Positions 5,480 to 13,889 of a stretch of 64,000 nt of DNA are shown piece by piece; position 1 is the stretch's first letter; each line of letters opens with the position of its first letter. The stretch is from Candidatus Thorarchaeota archaeon (GTDB lineage: Archaea > Asgardarchaeota > Thorarchaeia > Thorarchaeales > Thorarchaeaceae). The notes beneath the pieces were generated by a model, which ran no database searches, was not told where the DNA came from, and worked only from the letters and a program-made list of their open reading frames with translations. A program made the translations under genes and the position numbers. The stretch lies in NCBI GenBank assembly GCA_048884965.1, contig JBHLQH010000002.1, forward strand, positions 134,935 through 198,934, written 5' to 3'.

Positions 5480-6706
5480 ATGGCAGAAGTCTTCACAAAG
5501 CCTTCCCGGCGTATCACAAATATGGTAGCAAAGGAACTACGACTCATAGTTAAAGATAAGGTAGCTCTGATGTTGATATTCTTGTTACCTGCAGTACTCA
5601 TAGGGATGCTCTACTGGGTCACAAATGAAAGTGATATGGGGGGCATTGACATGGGAGGCGGAGGATTTGGTGGTGGTGGTGGTGGGGGCACCGGAGACAC
5701 AACAAATGTTACAGATATTACTGATGTAGCCACCAACACGACAGAGGAGGAAGACGGTCTAAAAATTGGACTAGTAGACCTAGACACGACACGTACGTAT
5801 GATGGACCAGATCTGTCTGAGAACTTTACGTCTTCGTTAGAGAGTTTCGTTGATGAATTGATCATCTACGAAACTGAGGACGAAGCATATCGCGATCTGT
5901 ATGAGAAGAAGATAGCAGGCTATGTCGTGATTCCAGACGGATTCGAGCAAAACCTCACATTGAACGTGCCAACCTATATCGAAGTGCATGTTGACGCATC
6001 GGACTTCATCGGGGAATCAACAGTCCAAGGAATTGTATCTGGAGCCACGATTCTCTTCAGAGTAAGCAAGCTCTGGATTCGATCGGAGGTGTTCCCCAAT
6101 ATGGTGATAGAGTTCTCTCCAGAGGGCGGCTACTTAGAGAGCGTCTTTGGTAGCTTTATTATTGTGTTCTCAGCATACCTGGGAATTGCCATGACTGCAG
6201 CGCAGTCGATTGTTGGAGATATTCCGTTGCGACGAATGTTATTGACCCCAACAAACAGACTGGAGGTTATTGTCGCAAAGGTGCTAGGATATGTCATCAT
6301 TGGCTTCTTTCAATCATTACTACTGATCACATTGTGGATCATTGTCTTTGGACTGAACCTCAATACAAGCTTCATGACTTTGGTAATCATTATGAGCCTA
6401 ATCGCGCTCACAGGATCGACAACAGGACTCCTCATATCATCAATATCAGGAACTAGACTGCAGGCGAACCAAATCTTCCTTTTTGTGCTATTTGGGTCGA
6501 TCATCCTTGCTGGCTTCTTTATCGATGTTGGGGTCCTTGACGAGATACTGCCGCTGAATCAGGGAATGAAATTACTCGTGGATACGGCATTCAAAGGATT
6601 GTCACTGTTCGATGTGTGGCTCCCAACTGCGAAACTTCTCGGTTTCTCAGTTATCGCGGTACTGGCATCTTCATTCATCTTTGGAAAGAAACCGACTCTG
6701 GGGTAG
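5480..6706 (+). CDS. ABC-2 type transporter permease
   Basis: 'KELRLIVKDK' N-terminus; TM1, extracellular domain ('GYVVIPDGF'), then 5 TMs; 'RRMLLTP...VIVAKVLG' motif. Confidence 0.92.
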   Translation: MAEVFTKPSRRITNMVAKELRLIVKDKVALMLIFLLPAVLIGMLYWVTNESDMGGIDMGGGGFGGGGGGGTGDTTNVTDITDVATNTTEEEDGLKIGLVDLDTTRTYDGPDLSENFTSSLESFVDELIIYETEDEAYRDLYEKKIAGYVVIPDGFEQNLTLNVPTYIEVHVDASDFIGESTVQGIVSGATILFRVSKLWIRSEVFPNMVIEFSPEGGYLESVFGSFIIVFSAYLGIAMTAAQSIVGDIPLRRMLLTPTNRLEVIVAKVLGYVIIGFFQSLLLITLWIIVFGLNLNTSFMTLVIIMSLIALTGSTTGLLISSISGTRLQANQIFLFVLFGSIILAGFFIDVGVLDEILPLNQGMKLLVDTAFKGLSLFDVWLPTAKLLGFSVIAVLASSFIFGKKPTLG

Positions 6707-6715
6707 GTAGTTATC

Positions 6716-8410
6716 ATGACACAACGCATTGAAGAATCAATAGAAAAGGGCGAAGAAACGCCAGCCTTTGTCGAGGAAGCATACTATTCAGGTGCAAGAA
6801 TCGGTGAAGCTATTGACTGGTGCCTATTGCGGAAGGATAGAGAGCTGCACTGCGAAATAGAAGGAAAGCTTACAGATTCAGATGAACAGGTCAAGTTTAG
6901 AGGGCGCATCATCAGCGTCAAGAAGGGAGTTCTACTCAGAAGGCTCTCTGTTGTCGTCGAGGAGGACCTGCGAAAGCGGAGGAAAGCAGACCTCGATAAA
7001 GTACTTACAGTTGGAGGAAGAGGGTCCACAACCGAAGATGTAGCTGCCACGCAGATCACGGTGCAAAACTACCTCAAACGGAATATGTCAGACGATATGT
7101 TCTTCGATGGAAAGGAGTTACAGCAAGCCCATAAAGATATCATGAAAATGAGAGAGAACAGGCTGATTAAGTGCACAGTCTGGGGAAGGCGTGCATCGGA
7201 TCGGCTGCCTATCGTGATTTCGGGAATCATCATATCAACCAACATTAGTCCACTTGAGCCATTCTTGCCAGAAGGATACCTCGAGGTGAGGGTAGAACCT
7301 GAGGAAGGTGTTGGAGATCCGAGAATATTCACAATAGCTCAACCTCAACTCCTAGTGGGACCAATTCGCTTTCGATCAGATCCGAATCTGATGATTTTTG
7401 CAAATAAGGTATATGTCCAACCATCTTCTTGGATGGAAGCACCAGTCTATAGAGATGTATTAGAATGCAGAAATCTCACAGTGACTCTCAAGAATGGAAA
7501 GAAACTGATAGAGAACGTTTCATTCTCAATCAAAGAGGGAGAAATGCTTGCGGTCATAGGTGAGTCAGGTGCTGGCAAGTCCACGACTGTCAAAGCGCTC
7601 ATCGGTGACATCCCAAGCACTGGGGTTGCACGGATAGCTGGCATCGATTCTAGGAACGCTCAGAAAGTACGCTACTTCTTTGGATACTGCCCGCAAGACC
7701 TGAACTATATGTATGAAACTTTTACTCCATTAGAGAATATCATCGCTTTCGGCAAACAGTATGATATCCCAGAATGGCAACTCACCCAAGAAGGAAAGAC
7801 CCTCCTCCGTGACTTCAACATGCTCGAGAAGGGTAATAATCTAACCAAGGAGCTGAGTGGGGGTCAGCAGCGAAGGGTTTCTATCGCGATGGCACTGGTG
7901 CATAGACCCAAGGTCCTGCTCATGGATGAGCCCACTTCAGGACTGGATCCTGATAACAGAAACGAACTTTGGCAGTTCCTGAACCACATCAACCAAGAAT
8001 ATGGAACCTCCATGGTGGTCATCACTCATTACCCAATAGAAGCTGAGTTTTGTGACAAGGTTGCAGTATTTATGCGCGGGAAGAGCTTGGTAGCTTTCGG
8101 GTCTCCTGCAAAGCTCAAGGAATCAATGCCATCTCGAGGTTTCTCAGTTGGTATCGTCCTAGAGGAAGTAGACCCTCGAGCCCGAAAAGCTCTGGAGTCA
8201 GTCCCTGGTGTAATGTTCGTACTTCAACGAGGTGAGCTCTTGAAGGTCTTCACTGAGGAACCGCTACAAACCATCGCAGAACGGTGCGTCACGGAATTGA
8301 ATGAGCGAGAGATAGCAGTCAAGATTGTGAAGACAAAAGCAGTCGCAGATCTGGTGGACTACTACATCGCTATTACTAGAGGACTCATCACTGGTATCAT
8401 TGAGAAATAA
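6716..8410 (+). CDS. ABC transporter ATP-binding protein with ~240-aa N-terminal extension (TrmB C-terminal-like repeats)
   Basis: Walker A GESGAGKST, signature LSGGQ, Walker B LLMDEP, H-loop ITH; NBD begins ~7457. Confidence 0.93.
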   Translation: MTQRIEESIEKGEETPAFVEEAYYSGARIGEAIDWCLLRKDRELHCEIEGKLTDSDEQVKFRGRIISVKKGVLLRRLSVVVEEDLRKRRKADLDKVLTVGGRGSTTEDVAATQITVQNYLKRNMSDDMFFDGKELQQAHKDIMKMRENRLIKCTVWGRRASDRLPIVISGIIISTNISPLEPFLPEGYLEVRVEPEEGVGDPRIFTIAQPQLLVGPIRFRSDPNLMIFANKVYVQPSSWMEAPVYRDVLECRNLTVTLKNGKKLIENVSFSIKEGEMLAVIGESGAGKSTTVKALIGDIPSTGVARIAGIDSRNAQKVRYFFGYCPQDLNYMYETFTPLENIIAFGKQYDIPEWQLTQEGKTLLRDFNMLEKGNNLTKELSGGQQRRVSIAMALVHRPKVLLMDEPTSGLDPDNRNELWQFLNHINQEYGTSMVVITHYPIEAEFCDKVAVFMRGKSLVAFGSPAKLKESMPSRGFSVGIVLEEVDPRARKALESVPGVMFVLQRGELLKVFTEEPLQTIAERCVTELNEREIAVKIVKTKAVADLVDYYIAITRGLITGIIEK

Positions 8411-8434: not shown

Positions 8435-11400
8435 ATGTCACTACCACGAACGACAGCAATGTTCCTAATTATCATCATGTTATGCAGTTCCTTCACAACA
8501 TTTACTCCAATCCTTTCAGATTCCGATGATATCGTACGACCTGAAGAGAAACTAGAGCAATCCCTTGTCGGCAAGACAACCAGTTCTGAGGAAATTGATG
8601 CTGTTGTGAGCTATAATGAAGAAATGACTGAATATAAGATGGGTCAAGCTCGTTCGTTTACAGAGAATATCGCTAAGGTCGTGGAAGTATATGATGATCT
8701 CAATATGATCAGGATAAAGATAATTGGAACAGAACTTCTTCGTCTTGCCAAGGCTAGTTTTGTGTCACATATCTCTCCGAATGAGGTCCTACAAGTCAAG
8801 CAAACAGATGCCTACTCCAGTAAAGCCCTAGCAGAAGATGAATACACATCCTTTGCAGAGCTTATCGGAGCCACTGATCTTTGGGAACGAGGCTATAATG
8901 GAAGCGGAGTCATCATCGCGGTCCTCGATACGGGCATTGATAGCTCTCATCCAGACCTTGACAATTTTGATGATAATTCCAGTACATCCAAGGTCGCAGC
9001 CTATGCCTCTTTTGTAGAAGCGGACTCTCTGCCAACAGATATCCTTGGACCAGGGTCATATGCTGCATCTATTGCTGCGGGTACTGGTAATGCGTCTGAA
9101 GGTCGATACTCGGGCATCGCTCCCGGTGCGATCCTCCTTGCAGGAAAGGTGACACTGGGAGGTATTCTAGCACTACCGAGCTGGATCGTATCAGGAATAG
9201 AATGGGCATCCACCAATGGGGCAGATATCATACTGCTTCCGTTCAACACCTTTGGAGCACCTAATGATGCCGTGGCACAAGCGATCGCTAAAGTTGTGAA
9301 CAAGGGGATCTTCGTTGTTGCAGCAGCGGGAGATGATGGTCCTGACTATCTTACTATAATGTCCCCAGGAGGAGGACTCGAGTGCTTTACAGTAGGAGCA
9401 TATGATCATGTGAACGGGGAGGTTCCTTCGTTCTCAGGAAGAGGCCCTTCATTATCATTGAACACCAAACCAGACCTGGTCGCACCGGGAGTAGGGATTG
9501 TTGGTGCGAGGATTGGTGGTGCCCTATCAGGACTCGGTCTTGGAGATTTCGATCTAGGTGGACTTGGTGGCCTTGGAGGACTCTTAGGTGGTTCTACTGG
9601 GGAGAATATCGATGATTATTACAAGGTCGCTGATACGACCGCAGCATCAGCGGCCATTGTAGCTGGTGCAGCTGCAATTCTTATGGGAGCCTTTGATAGA
9701 GCTACGCCAATCGTTATTGGTAACGTCCTTAGAGATACTGCGACAAAGCTAGCGTATGGTGCGAATGACGCGGGAGCAGGTCTTCTGAACCTACGGGCGG
9801 CCTTCAACTATCTAAGTCAACGACAATCACCAATCGACCCACTTGCCAGAACAACAGGATCGGCATTGCTGTCCTTTGGATTCCTATCGGCAGCGGGAAA
9901 TAACGCCTCATCAATTCTGATGATGAGCAGCTTTGGCACATCTACCTTGGTCATGGATTCTAGGAATGGCAATATGGACATCCACATGCTGATGGGAACT
10001 CTCTCCCTCAAATGGAACGATATGGACCCGACAAGTCTAATGAACTTCAAGGTAAAGCGCGAACTACACAGTGTCACGCTTGAAGGTCTAACTGGACTTC
10101 TCAGCGGCCTTCTAGGAGGTGCTGGAGCTGGTGATCTCGGAGACCTAGGAGGACTCGGTGGGCTCGGGGGACTTGGAGGATTGGGAGGAGGTGATTCCAA
10201 GGGCTATGGTCGGTACGTTGGAGTTCTTTCGTATGAAGACGAGCTATTCGTCACACTCGTTGTCGAGTCATATAACTTCACAACGAATAGCACGCTTCCA
10301 CTAACGGCATTCAAGATAACTCCCTTCATCCTCAATGTGGGGAACATCCCAATAGATAACGTGAGCCTCTATCTAGGATACTCTCTGGATCTCTTTGGTG
10401 ATGGAGAAGATGATCATGGAAAATATTCCCTTTCTAATCATCAGTTATTTGCCTATGGAATATCAGAGGATTATCGTGACTTCTATATTGGCATCAACTC
10501 AAGCAGGAAGATGGACGCCTTCGAAGTAGGGAATGCATCGGAGGTATCGTCACACATAACGAATGATAACTTGACAGGCTCCACGAATTTTGATGGAGAA
10601 GTAGGTCTTGGGATGAAGTGGGACTTTGGAAGAATCTATCCTAGGACTCCTGTTAACATTAGTATAGCAATGGGATTCGGTGAGAACAGAACTGTTCTAG
10701 ATGCGTCTATTGATGCCATGTGGACAGCCGAACCACCCTCCAGCTACACCGATCAAGGAGACTTCCTGATTATCGAGGCAGATATCCCGCGAACTGCAAA
10801 AGCTGGAGAAACATATGAGTCACGTGCAATTATAATGAATATTGGAACTCAGCCCTCAGATGCTCTTGCTGCCCTTGCTATCATCAAGGACAACAATGGC
10901 TCAGGAACGGCATTTGTGCAGTACTTCACCTTTGATGAGATCAAGCCGTTCCATATCCAAGTACTAGAGGCTGAATGGCGACCTGAAACGAATACTATGC
11001 ATAATGTTGTATGGATATCAACTATTGGGCTTGAATCCTTGAACAGTATTATCTCAGACATCACGACTCTGGCAGGAGGAATCACATCGCTGGCAATCAG
11101 CATTCTCGATGACTTCATCCAACGTGATGTATTCGTAGTGAATCCTATCTCATCGGCATCTATCTTTCCAAAGGTCCTACCTTTTGGTCCGTTCGATGTA
11201 CGATTCCCTATCGATTTTGGTATGTATACAATTTCACTAGCAACGACTTTGGAGCTTGGGAACATGACTGTCAAGAACGTTGGCAATGCCGCAGATTGGG
11301 GCAATGCAACGTTGAATTCAGTAGATAGTGTTACTGGGTTCTATAATTTCTCTATCTTCGTCCTCGTGCCGCCTGTAACAGTAGATGGGTATCATCGATG

Positions 11401-12907
11401 TGATTATGTCCTCGATACGGACTTCGGCTGGTCTGCAAATGTGACCCTTGAGAGGGTAGTCGAGTATCCACGAGCGATGATTTTGATGGACACATCTCAT
11501 GGTGGTGGATTTGGATCCCTGATGGGGGACAGCTTCGACCTCGGTGATACTGGAGGGTTCGATACAGGAGGATTTGGCGGAGGCGGTGGACTTCCATTCC
11601 CAGGCTTTTCCTTGGCACAGGACGACCTTGGAGATATGGGTTTTGGGGACATCAGCGATCTTGGTTCTATAGACGAGCTATTTGACTCGATTCGATTGAC
11701 TACGTTCTCCGGACTCTCGATCATGGAGAGTACAATGGCTGAGAATGGTATCGAGATTTTGGAGATACCCGGGACGGGGTTGAGTGAGGCTTTCTCTGCC
11801 TTGGCCGCTGCAGTCATGTTGATAGGACCTACAGAGGAGTTCAACAGCACTCACATTGAAACATATAGGGACTTTTCGGCAAGTGGAGGGAAAGTCATTA
11901 TCTTCGGTGATAATGAGGATAGGGCGAATTTGACAGGTTTGAACCCACTACTTGAAGCCTATGGCTATTACATGATGGGTGAGCACGATGCTGAGAATAC
12001 TACCGAGATTATTGCAGATTCCATCCTAGGTTCAGGTATGGACTCCATGTATCTAGGCGGTGGTACCTATATCTACAACAACCAATCAAGGGCCTCAGTC
12101 ACACTGAATGGAAAATCCGTGGTCTTAGTAGATGATTCCGCTCCAGAGATTATCCTCTTTGGTTCTTCGCGTATATTCATGAATGACAACATCGTGAAGT
12201 GCAACAACTCAATCTTGTTAGACAATCTTATCGAGTACCTGCTGGATGATACTCTCACATGTACTACAAGCCTCGCTGAGAATACTTCGAGATATCTTGT
12301 GGGGAAGAGCATCTACCTTAATCTCTATGTCACTGACTATGATGGATATCCAGTCAACGACCTGTTCGTTGCTATCGCATTCGAATTGCCAAATGGATCC
12401 CAAGCGTTCTTCATCGCGGGATTTGTTGAGAATGGTCTATACTCCTCTCAGTTCCTACCGAGCTACTGGAGAGATGAGGGAGTCGTTCACGGAATCTTCA
12501 TCCTGCTGAGAGAAGAGTACGCAGGGACCTATGCGAGCATATCCTTTGAACTTTACACATTGCCGCCAGCTAACACAACTATTACGCCAGAAGCATTCCT
12601 TACTATGGTCCAAGTTGCCTTTCTGACCTCTATAGGTATCTTTGGGGCAGTATTCACCATGTTAGGATTAAATCGATATCGAAGAAGGAAACGAATGCAC
12701 ATCCCAGAACTTGATCTAGAGCTCACCCAAGATATCGACAGCACACTCAATATGCTTCGAGCTACTATCGCTCAGTTGAACGATCTTATCGGACGTGAGG
12801 ACATCGATCGTATCCAGAAGATAGAGACCATGCGGAGCCTTATGGAAACCCTTGAACTGGCAAAGAAGAAGTTCAGGGAGATAAGCGATCAGATTGGAGG
12901 TATCTAG
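8435..12907 (+). CDS. Membrane-anchored S8 subtilisin-like pseudoprotease with GIFT (GldG/IFT52-like) domain
   Basis: Signal peptide and I9-like prodomain; S8 motifs VLDTG, FSGRGP, KPDLVAPGV; catalytic His and Ser replaced; 'ILMDTSH...GGKVIIFGD...LNPLLEAYG' GIFT-like; TM near 12613-12670 followed by RYRRRKR. Confidence 0.85.
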   Translation: MSLPRTTAMFLIIIMLCSSFTTFTPILSDSDDIVRPEEKLEQSLVGKTTSSEEIDAVVSYNEEMTEYKMGQARSFTENIAKVVEVYDDLNMIRIKIIGTELLRLAKASFVSHISPNEVLQVKQTDAYSSKALAEDEYTSFAELIGATDLWERGYNGSGVIIAVLDTGIDSSHPDLDNFDDNSSTSKVAAYASFVEADSLPTDILGPGSYAASIAAGTGNASEGRYSGIAPGAILLAGKVTLGGILALPSWIVSGIEWASTNGADIILLPFNTFGAPNDAVAQAIAKVVNKGIFVVAAAGDDGPDYLTIMSPGGGLECFTVGAYDHVNGEVPSFSGRGPSLSLNTKPDLVAPGVGIVGARIGGALSGLGLGDFDLGGLGGLGGLLGGSTGENIDDYYKVADTTAASAAIVAGAAAILMGAFDRATPIVIGNVLRDTATKLAYGANDAGAGLLNLRAAFNYLSQRQSPIDPLARTTGSALLSFGFLSAAGNNASSILMMSSFGTSTLVMDSRNGNMDIHMLMGTLSLKWNDMDPTSLMNFKVKRELHSVTLEGLTGLLSGLLGGAGAGDLGDLGGLGGLGGLGGLGGGDSKGYGRYVGVLSYEDELFVTLVVESYNFTTNSTLPLTAFKITPFILNVGNIPIDNVSLYLGYSLDLFGDGEDDHGKYSLSNHQLFAYGISEDYRDFYIGINSSRKMDAFEVGNASEVSSHITNDNLTGSTNFDGEVGLGMKWDFGRIYPRTPVNISIAMGFGENRTVLDASIDAMWTAEPPSSYTDQGDFLIIEADIPRTAKAGETYESRAIIMNIGTQPSDALAALAIIKDNNGSGTAFVQYFTFDEIKPFHIQVLEAEWRPETNTMHNVVWISTIGLESLNSIISDITTLAGGITSLAISILDDFIQRDVFVVNPISSASIFPKVLPFGPFDVRFPIDFGMYTISLATTLELGNMTVKNVGNAADWGNATLNSVDSVTGFYNFSIFVLVPPVTVDGYHRCDYVLDTDFGWSANVTLERVVEYPRAMILMDTSHGGGFGSLMGDSFDLGDTGGFDTGGFGGGGGLPFPGFSLAQDDLGDMGFGDISDLGSIDELFDSIRLTTFSGLSIMESTMAENGIEILEIPGTGLSEAFSALAAAVMLIGPTEEFNSTHIETYRDFSASGGKVIIFGDNEDRANLTGLNPLLEAYGYYMMGEHDAENTTEIIADSILGSGMDSMYLGGGTYIYNNQSRASVTLNGKSVVLVDDSAPEIILFGSSRIFMNDNIVKCNNSILLDNLIEYLLDDTLTCTTSLAENTSRYLVGKSIYLNLYVTDYDGYPVNDLFVAIAFELPNGSQAFFIAGFVENGLYSSQFLPSYWRDEGVVHGIFILLREEYAGTYASISFELYTLPPANTTITPEAFLTMVQVAFLTSIGIFGAVFTMLGLNRYRRRKRMHIPELDLELTQDIDSTLNMLRATIAQLNDLIGREDIDRIQKIETMRSLMETLELAKKKFREISDQIGGI

Positions 12908-12908
12908 A

Positions 12909-13889
12909 TTGAGTGAGCATCCTGAAAGAGAGATCGACATCATCGACCTGCAGGTTGCGTTTGGTGACTTCTATGCACTCAAGGGTGTATCATTCTATGC
13001 CAATAAGCGTGAGTTCTTGGGCATCATCGGGGCGAGCGGTGCTGGAAAGACCACTGTGCTTCGGGTACTGACTGGTCAGATAGGTCCCACTGGAGGACAA
13101 GCCTTCGTGGGAGGACACGATGTCACACGGAAGCGAAACCTGATCTCACTCTTAGTGGGATATGTGCCACAACTTGAACACCTTAGCTTGTACTTTGACT
13201 TCAGTGCGCTGGAGAATGCCAAGTTCTTCGGGAGATGTTTCGGACTCAGAGAGCCCGAAATCGAGAAGCGAGCACGGGAAGTATTGGAGATCCTCGGTTT
13301 CGATGAGGACCTCATGACCAAGACGGTATCGAGGCTCTCAGGAGGTGAACGCAAACGAGTGTCCATCTGCCTCGGTATGATTCATAATCCGCCGGTCTTG
13401 CTTTTGGACGAGCCGACCACAGGCTTGGATGCACATCTCCGGCACGAGACCCTGAACTACCTGAAGGAGCTCAACTTTGAGCTTGGAACCACCATGGTGA
13501 TCATCAGTCACGATCTTGAGATCGTTGACTACTGTACACGTGTGACACTCTTAGAGGATGGTCTAGTGAGTCAATTCGGGACTCCGCTAGAGCTTATCTC
13601 AACATTACCAGGAAAGGGAGAAGGTCTAGGACTACACCTTCCGAACCTTTCCTCATGGATGCTTAGCAAAGTAGAGCAGCTTCCCGGCGTGCGCTATTAT
13701 GCACGTTCTGGGAGGAACACCTTGAAGCTCTTTATCGATAACCCTGCAGACAATATGCTTCCAGTCATCACAGAGCTCAACAAGCAGGGGATACCATTCG
13801 AGGAGCTCTCGCTGGTCGAGGCAGATTTCTTCGATTATTTCCAAGTAAAGCCTTGGAAGAAAAAACCAACTACAGGAGAGAGTGAATGA
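12909..13889 (+). CDS. ABC transporter ATP-binding protein
   Basis: GASGAGKTT, LSGGE, LLLDEP, ISH motifs; TTG start at 12909 follows GGAGGT (track start 12894). Confidence 0.95.
   Translation: MSEHPEREIDIIDLQVAFGDFYALKGVSFYANKREFLGIIGASGAGKTTVLRVLTGQIGPTGGQAFVGGHDVTRKRNLISLLVGYVPQLEHLSLYFDFSALENAKFFGRCFGLREPEIEKRAREVLEILGFDEDLMTKTVSRLSGGERKRVSICLGMIHNPPVLLLDEPTTGLDAHLRHETLNYLKELNFELGTTMVIISHDLEIVDYCTRVTLLEDGLVSQFGTPLELISTLPGKGEGLGLHLPNLSSWMLSKVEQLPGVRYYARSGRNTLKLFIDNPADNMLPVITELNKQGIPFEELSLVEADFFDYFQVKPWKKKPTTGESE

What the first reader, a model, noticed from the sequence alone, without database searches (positions are those of the whole stretch)
6779..7430. ABC ATPase fused to tandem TrmB sugar-sensor C-terminal subdomains
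The N-terminal extension 'CEIEGKLTDSDEQVKFRGRIISV...LTVGGRGSTTEDVAATQITV' resembles the C-terminal SH3-like effector-binding subdomain of archaeal TrmB (recalled as 'EVEGKN..TG...FTGRVV...VKVGGMFAVIEDYESTEI'). The Gly and Glu of the GGxxxxxED sugar-contact loop are retained (7010-7039). A second, degenerate copy follows ('KCTVWGRRASDRLPIVISGIIIS...FTIAQ...IFANKVYV'). This suggests a cytoplasmic ligand-gated regulatory module borrowed from a transcription factor and fused to an exporter-type NBD.
Basis: partly seen in the sequence, partly recalled or inferred. Interest (0 to 1): 0.7.

Follow-up and report, generated by a model that had tools for sequence, protein, structure and literature searches.

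The report
Tandem TrmB-type barrels on ABC ATPase
An Asgard (Thor-type) archaeal ABC-transporter ATPase carries two copies of the small barrel that the archaeal sugar-sensing regulator TrmB uses to hold its sugar; I found no paper describing this fusion, and it probably lets a cytoplasmic ligand act on a conserved membrane machine, though no binding has been shown.

Summary
ORF 6716-8410 (+, 564 aa) is a complete ABC ATPase with a ~235-aa N-terminal extension.

- **Copy 1 (aa 18-122):** matches only the last third of Pfam Regulator_TrmB (48 bits, cut-off 22.2). Its predicted structure fits TrmB residues 247-340 at Z 15.6 and 1.5 Å over 91 residues. The next fold scores Z 8.1.
- **Copy 2 (aa 128-236):** a true but decayed duplicate (hhalign 98.4%, E 5e-15).
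- **Sugar loop:** the window's protein keeps the TrmB Gly320 and Glu326 equivalents (G101, E107). Across 126 homologues only the flanking T98, G100 and D108 are invariant.
- **Missing TrmB parts:** the DNA-binding domain and the first sensor subdomain are absent, so this is not a TrmB regulator.
- **Distribution:** the module occurs once per genome in 51 of 121 sampled Asgard genomes (8 of 26 families). It is ABC-fused in every family but one.
- **Neighbours:** an ABC-2 permease and, in four of the five relatives' neighbourhoods read, a shorter paralogous ATPase; often also a giant S8/GIFT surface protein.

Ligand sensing or substrate recognition is plausible but untested, and "borrowed from a transcription factor" is unproven. 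I class it as a new variant of a known kind (accessory-domain ABC ATPases) of moderate interest.

The parts
5480..6706 (+). ABC-2 family permease (408 aa) with a large loop after TM1; partner of the ATPase
   Evidence: PF12698 ABC2_membrane_3 E 3e-26 and PF01061 E 2e-12. A permease lies next to the long ATPase in all five relatives' neighbourhoods read.
6716..8410 (+). Long ABC ATPase, 564 aa: two TrmB-type barrels + NBD + C-terminal R-domain
   Evidence: ORF. More than 120 clusters of 70-85% identical homologues of 546-566 aa; those that carry an organism name are Asgard MAGs, mostly Thorarchaeota. Full-length model pLDDT 85, pTM 0.75.
6767..7081 (+). Barrel copy 1 (aa 18-122): strand, helix, five-stranded bent barrel; equals TrmB residues 247-340
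   Evidence: PF11495 48 bits. VIA-align Z 15.6, 1.5 A over 91 aa to 3qph_A; Z 15.1, 1.3 A over 89 aa to 2f5t_X. The layout matches the published description of strand Ebeta9, helix Ealpha4 and a barrel (PMC4158304).
7007..7039 (+). Loop T98-D108 (TVGGRGSTTED), equivalent to the TrmB sugar-contact loop Gly320-Glu326
   Evidence: Aligned to PVGGIRAQYED of the Asgard TrmB in L010 by the copy-1 HMM. T98, G100 and D108 are invariant; G101 and E107 are partly conserved. TrmB contact residues are from PMC4158304.
7097..7423 (+). Barrel copy 2 (aa 128-236): same strand-helix-barrel unit; loop motif lost (TIAQPQLL)
   Evidence: hhalign copy 1 against copy 2: 98.4%, E 5e-15. Same order of secondary-structure elements. 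In distant homologues copy 2 still reads TVGG / KIGG, and their best PF11495 match falls in copy 2 (P0131; L034).
7463..8125 (+). Nucleotide-binding domain (aa ~250-470) with canonical Walker A, Q-loop, LSGGQ signature, Walker B with the catalytic Glu, and H-loop
   Evidence: PF00005 E 9e-28. Motifs read from the sequence and invariant in alignment A3.
8126..8380 (+). C-terminal R-domain (aa ~471-555), typical of ABC-2 / ABCA-class ATPases
   Evidence: The best structural matches to the C-terminal half are TM_1403 (4yer), ABCA7/A4/A1/A3 and NosF, aligned over about 315-330 columns.
8435..12907 (+). 1490-aa S8 subtilase-like / GIFT (GldG-type ABC auxiliary) protein, co-directional neighbour
   Evidence: PF00082 E 1e-36. 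PF23355 IFT52_GIFT, PF14258 and PF09822 score below their cut-offs. An S8-bearing giant lies next to the long ATPase in two relatives (PF00082 in L007, and L036); L005 has an unannotated giant gene in the same position.
12894..13889 (+). Short paralogous ABC ATPase (331 aa, NBD + R-domain, no barrels); probable heterodimer partner
   Evidence: 34% identical to aa 251-564 of the long ATPase, E 6e-49. PF00005 E 3e-27. A short ATPase accompanies the long one in four of the five relatives' neighbourhoods read.

Best explanation
The gene encodes one of two paralogous ATPase subunits of an Asgard ABC-2 (type V, ABCA/NosF-like) membrane machine. Its cytoplasmic N-terminus carries two tandem copies of the Sm/SH3-like barrel that forms the second subdomain of the TrmB sugar sensor.

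Shown: the domain identity, the internal duplication, a catalytically complete NBD, the conserved partnership with an ABC-2 permease and a shorter paralogous ATPase, and conservation across several Asgard families.

Inferred: copy 1, which keeps the T-x-G...E-D loop that holds the glucosyl moiety in TrmB, binds a small polar ligand. The ligand would be a sugar or the sugar part of a larger molecule. Copy 2, or the NBD, would supply the second wall of the pocket that the first subdomain supplies in TrmB. Occupancy would then be passed to the NBD heterodimer and change ATP turnover. That could serve as a metabolic gate or as recognition of the thing being exported, as the carbohydrate-binding domain does in O-antigen WzmWzt. 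The stated confidence refers to this functional inference; my confidence in the domain assignment is at least 0.9.
For: - Domain identity: Pfam PF11495 at 48 bits against a cut-off of 22.2, on profile positions 160-231 only. TrmB is the top structural hit at Z 15.6 and 1.5 A over 91 aa, far above the next fold at Z 8.1.
- Duplication: hhalign 98.4%, E 5e-15.
- Loop: G101 and E107 align to TrmB Gly320 and Glu326 through an Asgard TrmB. These are the only two sugar contacts kept in the sugar-responsive paralogues TrmBL1, Tgr and MalR (PMC4158304).
- The T-x-G...E-D pattern persists in homologues sharing only 23-44% identity over this N-terminal region.
- T98, G100 and D108 are invariant in 126 sequences.
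- Purifying selection: median identity to the window's protein is 0.68 for copy 1 and 0.58 for copy 2, against 0.85 for the NBD.
- The module was found only on ABC ATPases, apart from truncated records and one small stand-alone form.
- Precedent for an NBD-fused sugar-binding domain that modulates ATP hydrolysis: WzmWzt (PMC9445017).
- A partial TrmB sensor domain has been linked to archaeal glycan pathways before (PMC5898192).
Against: - No binding or activity data exist.
- Four of the six barrel contacts of TrmB are not kept: M321 becomes R, V324 becomes T and I325 becomes T; Asn305 falls in a basic, low-confidence loop.
- The first TrmB subdomain, with Ser229 and the recognition helix, is absent.
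- Within the family the Gly320 and Glu326 equivalents vary (G/S and E/Q/D). The invariant residues may be purely structural.
- Copy 2 has lost the loop motif in the Thor clade.
- I could not inspect model coordinates, so I do not know whether the loop is exposed.
- No direct sequence search linked the domain to TrmB chains in the PDB.
- Sm-like barrels often bind proteins or nucleic acids rather than sugars.
Confidence: 0.4

Rival explanations
1. The tandem barrels are a protein-protein interaction or assembly module with no small-molecule ligand. They would dock the long ATPase to its short paralogue, to another copy of the machine, or to the cytoplasmic tails of the giant membrane-anchored neighbours. 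The conserved loop would be structural.
For: Beyond TrmB, the nearest folds are Sm/LSm, Pelota-N, RimP and WYL barrels (Z 5-8), which mostly bind macromolecules. The strictly invariant residues (T98, G100, D108) flank the TrmB contact positions rather than coincide with them. The system has two different ATPases, so an asymmetric docking element would make sense. The full-length model has pTM 0.75, which is compatible with the barrels packing on the rest of the protein.
Against: The closest relative by far is a sugar-binding domain. The Glu326 equivalent is Glu in the most divergent family members, where much else has changed. No partner was identified.
Confidence: 0.3
2. The module is a substrate-selection device only. 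It recognises the sugar head or cap of a lipid-linked or protein-linked glycan that the ABC-2 machine moves, and has no metabolic-gating role. This is the Wzt carbohydrate-binding-domain model in the strict sense.
For: Wzt, an ATPase of an ABC-2-type (Wzm) O-antigen exporter, carries a carbohydrate-binding domain that recognises the O-antigen cap (PMC9445017). The neighbours are giant surface proteins, and one carries a GldG/GIFT-type ABC auxiliary domain. A partial TrmB sensor domain was previously tied to archaeal glycan pathways (PMC5898192).
Against: The permease is of the ABC2_membrane_3 type with a large outer loop, unlike, as I recall, the compact Wzm. I did not look for glycosyltransferase genes near the locus. 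The Wzt domain is C-terminal and has a different fold.
Confidence: 0.2
3. The extension is an evolutionary relic: a folded but functionless spacer kept only because it is needed for stability of the ATPase.
For: Copy 2 has decayed and evolves fastest (median identity 0.58). Loop residues drift within the family.
Against: Both copies are retained, at similar length, in six of the seven ABC-fused Asgard families; in the f9 genome the match covers copy 1 and only part of copy 2. There is one copy per genome. Many positions are invariant or nearly so.
Confidence: 0.1

Closest known systems
TrmB effector-binding domain, second (C-terminal) subdomain (Pyrococcus furiosus / Thermococcus litoralis TrmB; PDB 3QPH, 2F5T; Pfam PF11495 positions ~150-233)
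   Same: The unit is the same: one strand, one helix and a bent barrel. It superimposes at 1.3-1.5 A over about 90 residues at 20% identity. The V/T-x-G-G-x5-E-D loop is shared, including the Gly320 and Glu326 equivalents.
   Different: There is no winged-helix DNA-binding domain, no coiled coil and no first sensor subdomain (sugar-recognition helix, Ser229). The barrel is duplicated in tandem and sits at the N-terminus of an ABC ATPase. Contacts Met321, Val324 and Ile325 are replaced, and Asn305 has no evident equivalent.
Wzt of the O-antigen exporter WzmWzt: NBD fused to a carbohydrate-binding domain (PMC9445017)
   Same: An exporter ATPase that works with an ABC-2 family (Wzm) permease and carries a cytoplasmic sugar-binding accessory domain, which recognises the cargo and modulates ATP hydrolysis. 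This is the best functional analogy.
   Different: The Wzt domain is C-terminal, is a single unrelated domain (a beta-sandwich jelly roll, as I recall), and acts in a homodimeric NBD pair. Here the module is N-terminal, is a tandem Sm-like barrel, and sits on only one of two paralogous ATPases.
Importer ATPases with C-terminal regulatory domains (MalK and ModC TOBE/OB barrels; MetN C2 domain). This comparison rests on my own knowledge of the field.
   Same: Small beta-rich ligand-binding domains fused to an NBD give ligand-dependent control of ATPase activity (trans-inhibition, inducer exclusion).
   Different: Those domains have a different fold, sit at the C-terminus and belong to importers. 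No TOBE-type chain appeared in the fold-search lists.
ABC-2 / ABCA-class ATPases with an R-domain (Thermotoga TM_1403 4YER, NosF of NosDFY, human ABCA1/4/7)
   Same: The C-terminal 315 residues (NBD + R-domain) match these best. The gene is adjacent to an ABC-2 permease.
   Different: No aligned stretch in the Foldseek list is longer than about 350 of the 564 residues, so none of these chains covers the N-terminal barrel module.

Membership tests
TrmB family transcription regulator (wHTH + effector-binding domain) | N-terminal winged-helix DNA-binding domain (Pfam PF01978) | tested here: not met
   hmmscan of the whole protein at E up to 1 lists no PF01978. The barrel starts at aa 18, which leaves no room for such a domain.
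TrmB family transcription regulator (wHTH + effector-binding domain) | First sensor subdomain (eight-stranded sheet with the sugar-recognition helix and Ser229; PF11495 positions ~1-140) | tested here: not met
   The PF11495 match covers only profile positions 160-231. The model shows two barrels and nothing else before the NBD.
TrmB effector-domain C-terminal barrel subdomain (domain-level homology) | Profile match above the curated threshold to the barrel part of PF11495 | tested here: met
   48 bits against a cut-off of 22.2, E 1.3e-12, aa 37-117. Copy 1 alone scores 39.4 bits. Homologues also match.
TrmB effector-domain C-terminal barrel subdomain (domain-level homology) | Strand-helix-barrel fold superimposable on TrmB 247-340 | tested here: met
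   Predicted model against 3qph_A: Z 15.6, 1.5 A over 91 aa. Against 2f5t_X: Z 15.1, 1.3 A over 89 aa. Next fold Z 8.1. This rests on a predicted structure, not a solved one.
TrmB effector-domain C-terminal barrel subdomain (domain-level homology) | Gly320 and Glu326 of the sugar loop | tested here: met
   G101 and E107 in the window's protein, aligned through the Asgard TrmB L010 and consistent with the offsets of the structural alignment. In the family they are only partly conserved: G 66% / S 31%; E 48% / Q 29% / D 18%.
TrmB effector-domain C-terminal barrel subdomain (domain-level homology) | The other barrel sugar contacts (Asn305, Met321, Val324, Ile325) | tested here: not met
   The loop reads G-R-G-S-T-T-E where TrmB has G-M-x-x-V-I-E. 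By offset the Asn305 position falls in the basic loop 85-95, which has low pLDDT. Side-chain identity is lost. I did not check whether any of these contacts are made through the main chain.
TrmB effector-domain C-terminal barrel subdomain (domain-level homology) | Binds maltose, sucrose or another sugar | not testable with these tools
   Needs DSF, ITC or a crystal soak of the purified module.
ABC-2 / type V exporter ATPase with R-domain | Complete ABC motifs (Walker A, Q-loop, LSGGQ, Walker B with Glu, H-loop) | tested here: met
   GESGAGKST, Q327, LSGGQQRR, LLMDEPTSGLD and H438 are read from the sequence and invariant in A3. PF00005 E 9e-28. The A-loop aromatic residue is not evident.
ABC-2 / type V exporter ATPase with R-domain | Adjacent ABC-2 family permease, and NBD + R-domain structure like TM_1403 / ABCA / NosF | tested here: met
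   The permease (PF12698/PF01061) ends 9 nt upstream. Foldseek E 1e-21 to 4yer_A; ABCA7/4/1/3 and NosF follow.
NBD with carbohydrate-binding domain of the Wzt type | C-terminal Wzt-type carbohydrate-binding domain on the NBD | tested here: not met
   The accessory module is N-terminal and its fold is the TrmB barrel. The resemblance is functional analogy only.

The most novel reading that the evidence does not exclude
The two subdomains of the TrmB sensor are independent evolutionary modules. In Asgard archaea the barrel half has been duplicated and used as a cytoplasmic sugar or metabolite receptor on one ATPase of a heterodimeric ABC-2 machine. That machine works with giant surface proteins, one carrying an IFT52/GldG-type GIFT domain. 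Cytoplasmic carbon status, or a glycan cargo, would thereby directly control assembly or movement of the cell-surface apparatus. This would be a previously undescribed signalling route in the closest archaeal relatives of eukaryotes.
Probability: 0.15. Interest if true: 0.75.

Novelty: new variant of a known kind. Interest (0 to 1): 0.45.

Why it matters
ABC ATPases with ligand-binding accessory domains are a known way to couple transport to cell state (MalK, ModC, MetN, Wzt). In those examples the domain is C-terminal and has a different fold.

Here a barrel otherwise known as half of an archaeal sugar-sensing transcription factor is duplicated and placed at the N-terminus of an exporter-class ATPase. 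The fusion is kept in several Asgard families, within a conserved gene set of unknown function that sits next to giant surface proteins.

If the barrels bind a sugar, they would give a direct experimental handle (a ligand) on an uncharacterised Asgard membrane machine. They would also show that the TrmB sensor is built from separable modules.

If they do not, the result is still a clean domain annotation for several hundred proteins now labelled only "ABC transporter ATP-binding protein".

Tried and rejected
- **Direct sequence searches against PDB chains.** The extension did not find TrmB as a single sequence. The family profile A2 found only designed toroid repeats, hit through the short helix motif YYDGxxLQQA, plus ribosomal uL3 at E about 1; all are spurious.
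- **Residue-level alignment to 3QPH.** I tried to obtain one through a full-length Asgard TrmB (L010). Only its N-terminal half aligned, so I used an HMM alignment of L010 to the copy-1 profile instead.
- **Foldseek double-barrel hits.** HtrA/DegP/DegS proteases have rmsd 13-16 A and a PilZ protein (2gjg) has rmsd 21 A; I rejected them as shared local 3Di patterns.
- **Known tandem-barrel arrangements.** None matched both copies at once in the wide structural search. TOBE/MalK-type chains did not appear in any list.
- **ESM Atlas.** It returned no usable neighbour.
- **Literature.** Searches for PF11495, Regulator_TrmB or IPR021586, and for TrmB plus ABC fusion, found no description of this architecture.
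- **Model coordinates.** I could not read them, so pocket geometry and the packing of the barrels against the NBD remain unexamined.
Full report
**What is there.** The finding lies in ORF 6716-8410 (+ strand, 564 aa). The ORF starts 9 nt after the stop of an ABC-2 family permease gene (5480-6706; PF12698 E 3e-26). Residues ~250-470 are a complete ABC nucleotide-binding domain (PF00005 E 9e-28). Walker A, Q-loop, LSGGQ signature, Walker B with the catalytic Glu, and H-loop are all intact. Residues ~471-555 form the extra C-terminal domain seen in ABC-2/ABCA-class ATPases. The best structural matches to this half are Thermotoga TM_1403 (E 1e-21), ABCA7/4/1/3 and NosF.

**Check of the observation: copy 1.**
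- Pfam Regulator_TrmB (PF11495) matches aa 37-117 at 48 bits (cut-off 22.2, E 1.3e-12). The match covers only profile positions 160-231 of 233.
- An AlphaFold model of aa 1-255, built on a 35-row family alignment, has mean pLDDT 77.5. It shows two repeats of one strand, one helix and five strands, at 18-122 and 128-236. The full-length model shows the same elements (pLDDT 85, pTM 0.75).
- Foldseek against the PDB puts the two TrmB structures first (3qph_A E 2e-6, 2f5t_X E 2e-5).
- VIA-align gives Z 15.6 at 1.5 Å over 91 residues, model 18-121 onto TrmB 247-340, and Z 15.1 at 1.3 Å over 89 residues. An independent scan of 48,161 chains gives the same result. The next fold, the Pelota N domain, has Z 8.1, followed by Sm/LSm, RimP and WYL barrels at Z 5-6.
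[quoted passage not shown] That is the unit predicted here.

**Check of the observation: copy 2.** Alone it reaches only E 0.2 against PF11495, and structurally it matches only generic SH3-type barrels (Z ~5.9). I cut the family alignment into the two halves and compared the profiles. This gave 98.4% probability, E 5e-15, over 93 aligned columns, including the leading helix (AYYSGARIGEAIDW against MFFDGKELQQAHKD). In distant homologues copy 2 still shows TVGG or KIGG where the window reads TIAQ. In two of them the best Pfam match falls in copy 2 (P0131; L034). The tandem duplication is therefore real, and it is old.

**The sugar loop.** In TrmB the non-reducing glucosyl unit is held by Asn305, Gly320, Met321, Val324, Ile325 and Glu326 of the barrel, plus Ser229 of the first subdomain. 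The sugar-responsive paralogues TrmBL1, Tgr and MalR keep only Gly320 and Glu326 (PMC4158304).
- The window reads T98-V-G-G-R-G-S-T-T-E-D108.
- A copy-1 HMM aligns this to P-V-G-G-I-R-A-Q-Y-E-D at the end of a full-length Asgard TrmB (L010, PF11495 2-230, E 6e-39).
- The offsets of the structural alignment agree: residue 121 pairs with 340, so G101 pairs with Gly320 and E107 with Glu326.
Met321, Val324 and Ile325 are replaced by Arg, Thr and Thr.
- Across 126 full-length homologues T98, G100 and D108 are invariant. G101 is Gly in 66% and Ser in 31%. E107 is Glu 48%, Gln 29% and Asp 18%.
- In the most divergent members, which share 23-44% identity over this region, the pattern T-x-G...E-D persists.
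- This fits a retained polar pocket. It is equally compatible with a structural hairpin.

**What it is not.** The protein has no winged-helix domain and no first sensor subdomain. It is therefore not a TrmB-family regulator. It carries two copies of one TrmB module.

**Distribution.**
- An exhaustive phmmer scan of 1.84 billion representatives with aa 1-255 found only 15 clusters. All are ABC-fused proteins of 482-591 aa or shorter, apparently truncated records.
- A profile search found 169 clusters at 90% identity. The 120 listed were again ABC-fused or partial. Those that carry an organism name are Asgard MAGs: mostly Thorarchaeota, one Jordarchaeaceae, and a few labelled Loki-, Hod-, Odin- or Promethearchaeota.
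- In 121 genomes sampled across the phylum the module was found in 51, almost always once per genome. It occurred in 8 of 26 families: f1 17/17, f2 1/1, f7 5/5, f9 1/15, f12 15/17, f19 6/6, f21 3/3 and f24 2/2.
- Only f21 differs. There a 158-166-aa frame holds a single stand-alone barrel (L032:4281-4769).
- In the same genomes most TrmB-like regulators match only the first subdomain (positions 1-137, frames of 250-290 aa). One full sensor was seen. So the claim that the ABC protein borrowed the barrel from a regulator is not established. The two halves of the TrmB sensor look like separable modules.

**Context.**
- In the window the order is permease, long ATPase, a 1490-aa S8 subtilase-like protein with sub-threshold GIFT / GldG-type auxiliary matches, a short ATPase, and a 2251-aa propeller / TSP3-repeat protein.
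- The short ATPase is a paralogue of the NBD + R-domain part of the long one (34% identity, E 6e-49) and also has intact motifs.
- A permease lies next to the long ATPase in all five relatives' neighbourhoods read. A short ATPase is there in four of them: three copies of one metagenomic neighbourhood, plus families f19 and f7. An S8-bearing giant is adjacent in two, and a third has an unannotated giant gene in the same position.
- The likely unit is therefore a heterodimer of NBDs, only one of which carries the barrels, on an ABC-2 permease.

**How it most likely works.** The steps shown are listed above. The rest is inference.
- My preferred reading (about 0.4) is that copy 1 binds a small polar ligand, probably a sugar or the sugar end of a larger molecule, through the retained loop. 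Copy 2 or the NBD would replace the missing first subdomain as the other wall of the pocket. Occupancy would then change ATP turnover of the asymmetric NBD pair.
- This could be metabolic gating, as in the regulatory domains of MalK, ModC and MetN (my own knowledge). It could also be cargo recognition, as for the carbohydrate-binding domain of Wzt, which both recognises the O-antigen cap and modulates hydrolysis (PMC9445017).
- A partial TrmB sensor domain has been linked to archaeal glycan pathways before (PMC5898192).
- The main rival (about 0.3) is a docking or assembly role with no small ligand. It is favoured by the Sm-like fold class and by the invariant residues lying beside, not at, the TrmB contact positions.
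- A strict cargo-selection role (0.2) and a functionless relic (0.1) complete the list.

**Novelty and verdict.** I found no paper describing this architecture. Automatic Pfam annotation already tags most of these proteins with PF11495. Accessory ligand-binding domains on ABC ATPases are a known kind. An N-terminal tandem of the TrmB barrel on one subunit of an exporter-class heterodimer is a new variant.

The structural interpretation is supported. The functional interpretation is plausible but untested. Interest is moderate (0.45).

Noticed in passing
L032:4281-4769 (- strand; genome G053, Asgard family f21); also G044 and G061: A stand-alone 162-aa protein holds a single copy of the same barrel (YFSGDELEKAIDW ... 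IHIGKPGS...ADVAAEDIFL). It ends in a run of Arg residues and lies divergently next to a 628-aa predicted membrane protein. It is the only non-ABC context found for the module.
   Followed up: partly
window 7463-7510 (aa 250-265 of the long ATPase): The usual A-loop aromatic residue before Walker A is not evident. The family consensus reads NLTV-T/K-I/V-K-S-G-K-K, whereas the short paralogue has AFGDFY there. A conserved Tyr245-Arg246 (98% and 97%) sits just upstream in the linker from the barrels. This may point to asymmetric nucleotide sites.
   Followed up: partly
window 12894-13889: The short paralogous ATPase starts at a TTG that overlaps the end of the 1490-aa gene by 14 nt. Its stop overlaps the start of the 2251-aa gene by 4 nt, which suggests translational coupling of the set.
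   Followed up: no
121 Asgard genomes; example loci L011-L021: Most PF11495 matches in Asgard genomes cover only the first sensor subdomain (profile 1-137) in 250-290-aa frames, that is TrmBL2-like regulators without the barrel. Only one full two-subdomain TrmB was seen (L010:1087-2220). Some first-subdomain matches lie in frames of 680-1300 aa of unknown architecture.
   Followed up: no
window 5630-5700 (permease aa ~51-72): The ABC-2 permease has a Gly-rich low-complexity insert (GGIDMGGGGFGGGGGGGTGD) at the start of its large loop after TM1. Similar Gly-rich runs occur in the 1490-aa neighbour.
   Followed up: no
window 7085-7140 (aa 124-142): The helix motif YYDGxxLQQA before copy 2 produced spurious, apparently significant profile hits to designed toroid repeat proteins (5byo, 4yxz) in the PDB sequence search. 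This is a trap for automated annotation.
   Followed up: yes
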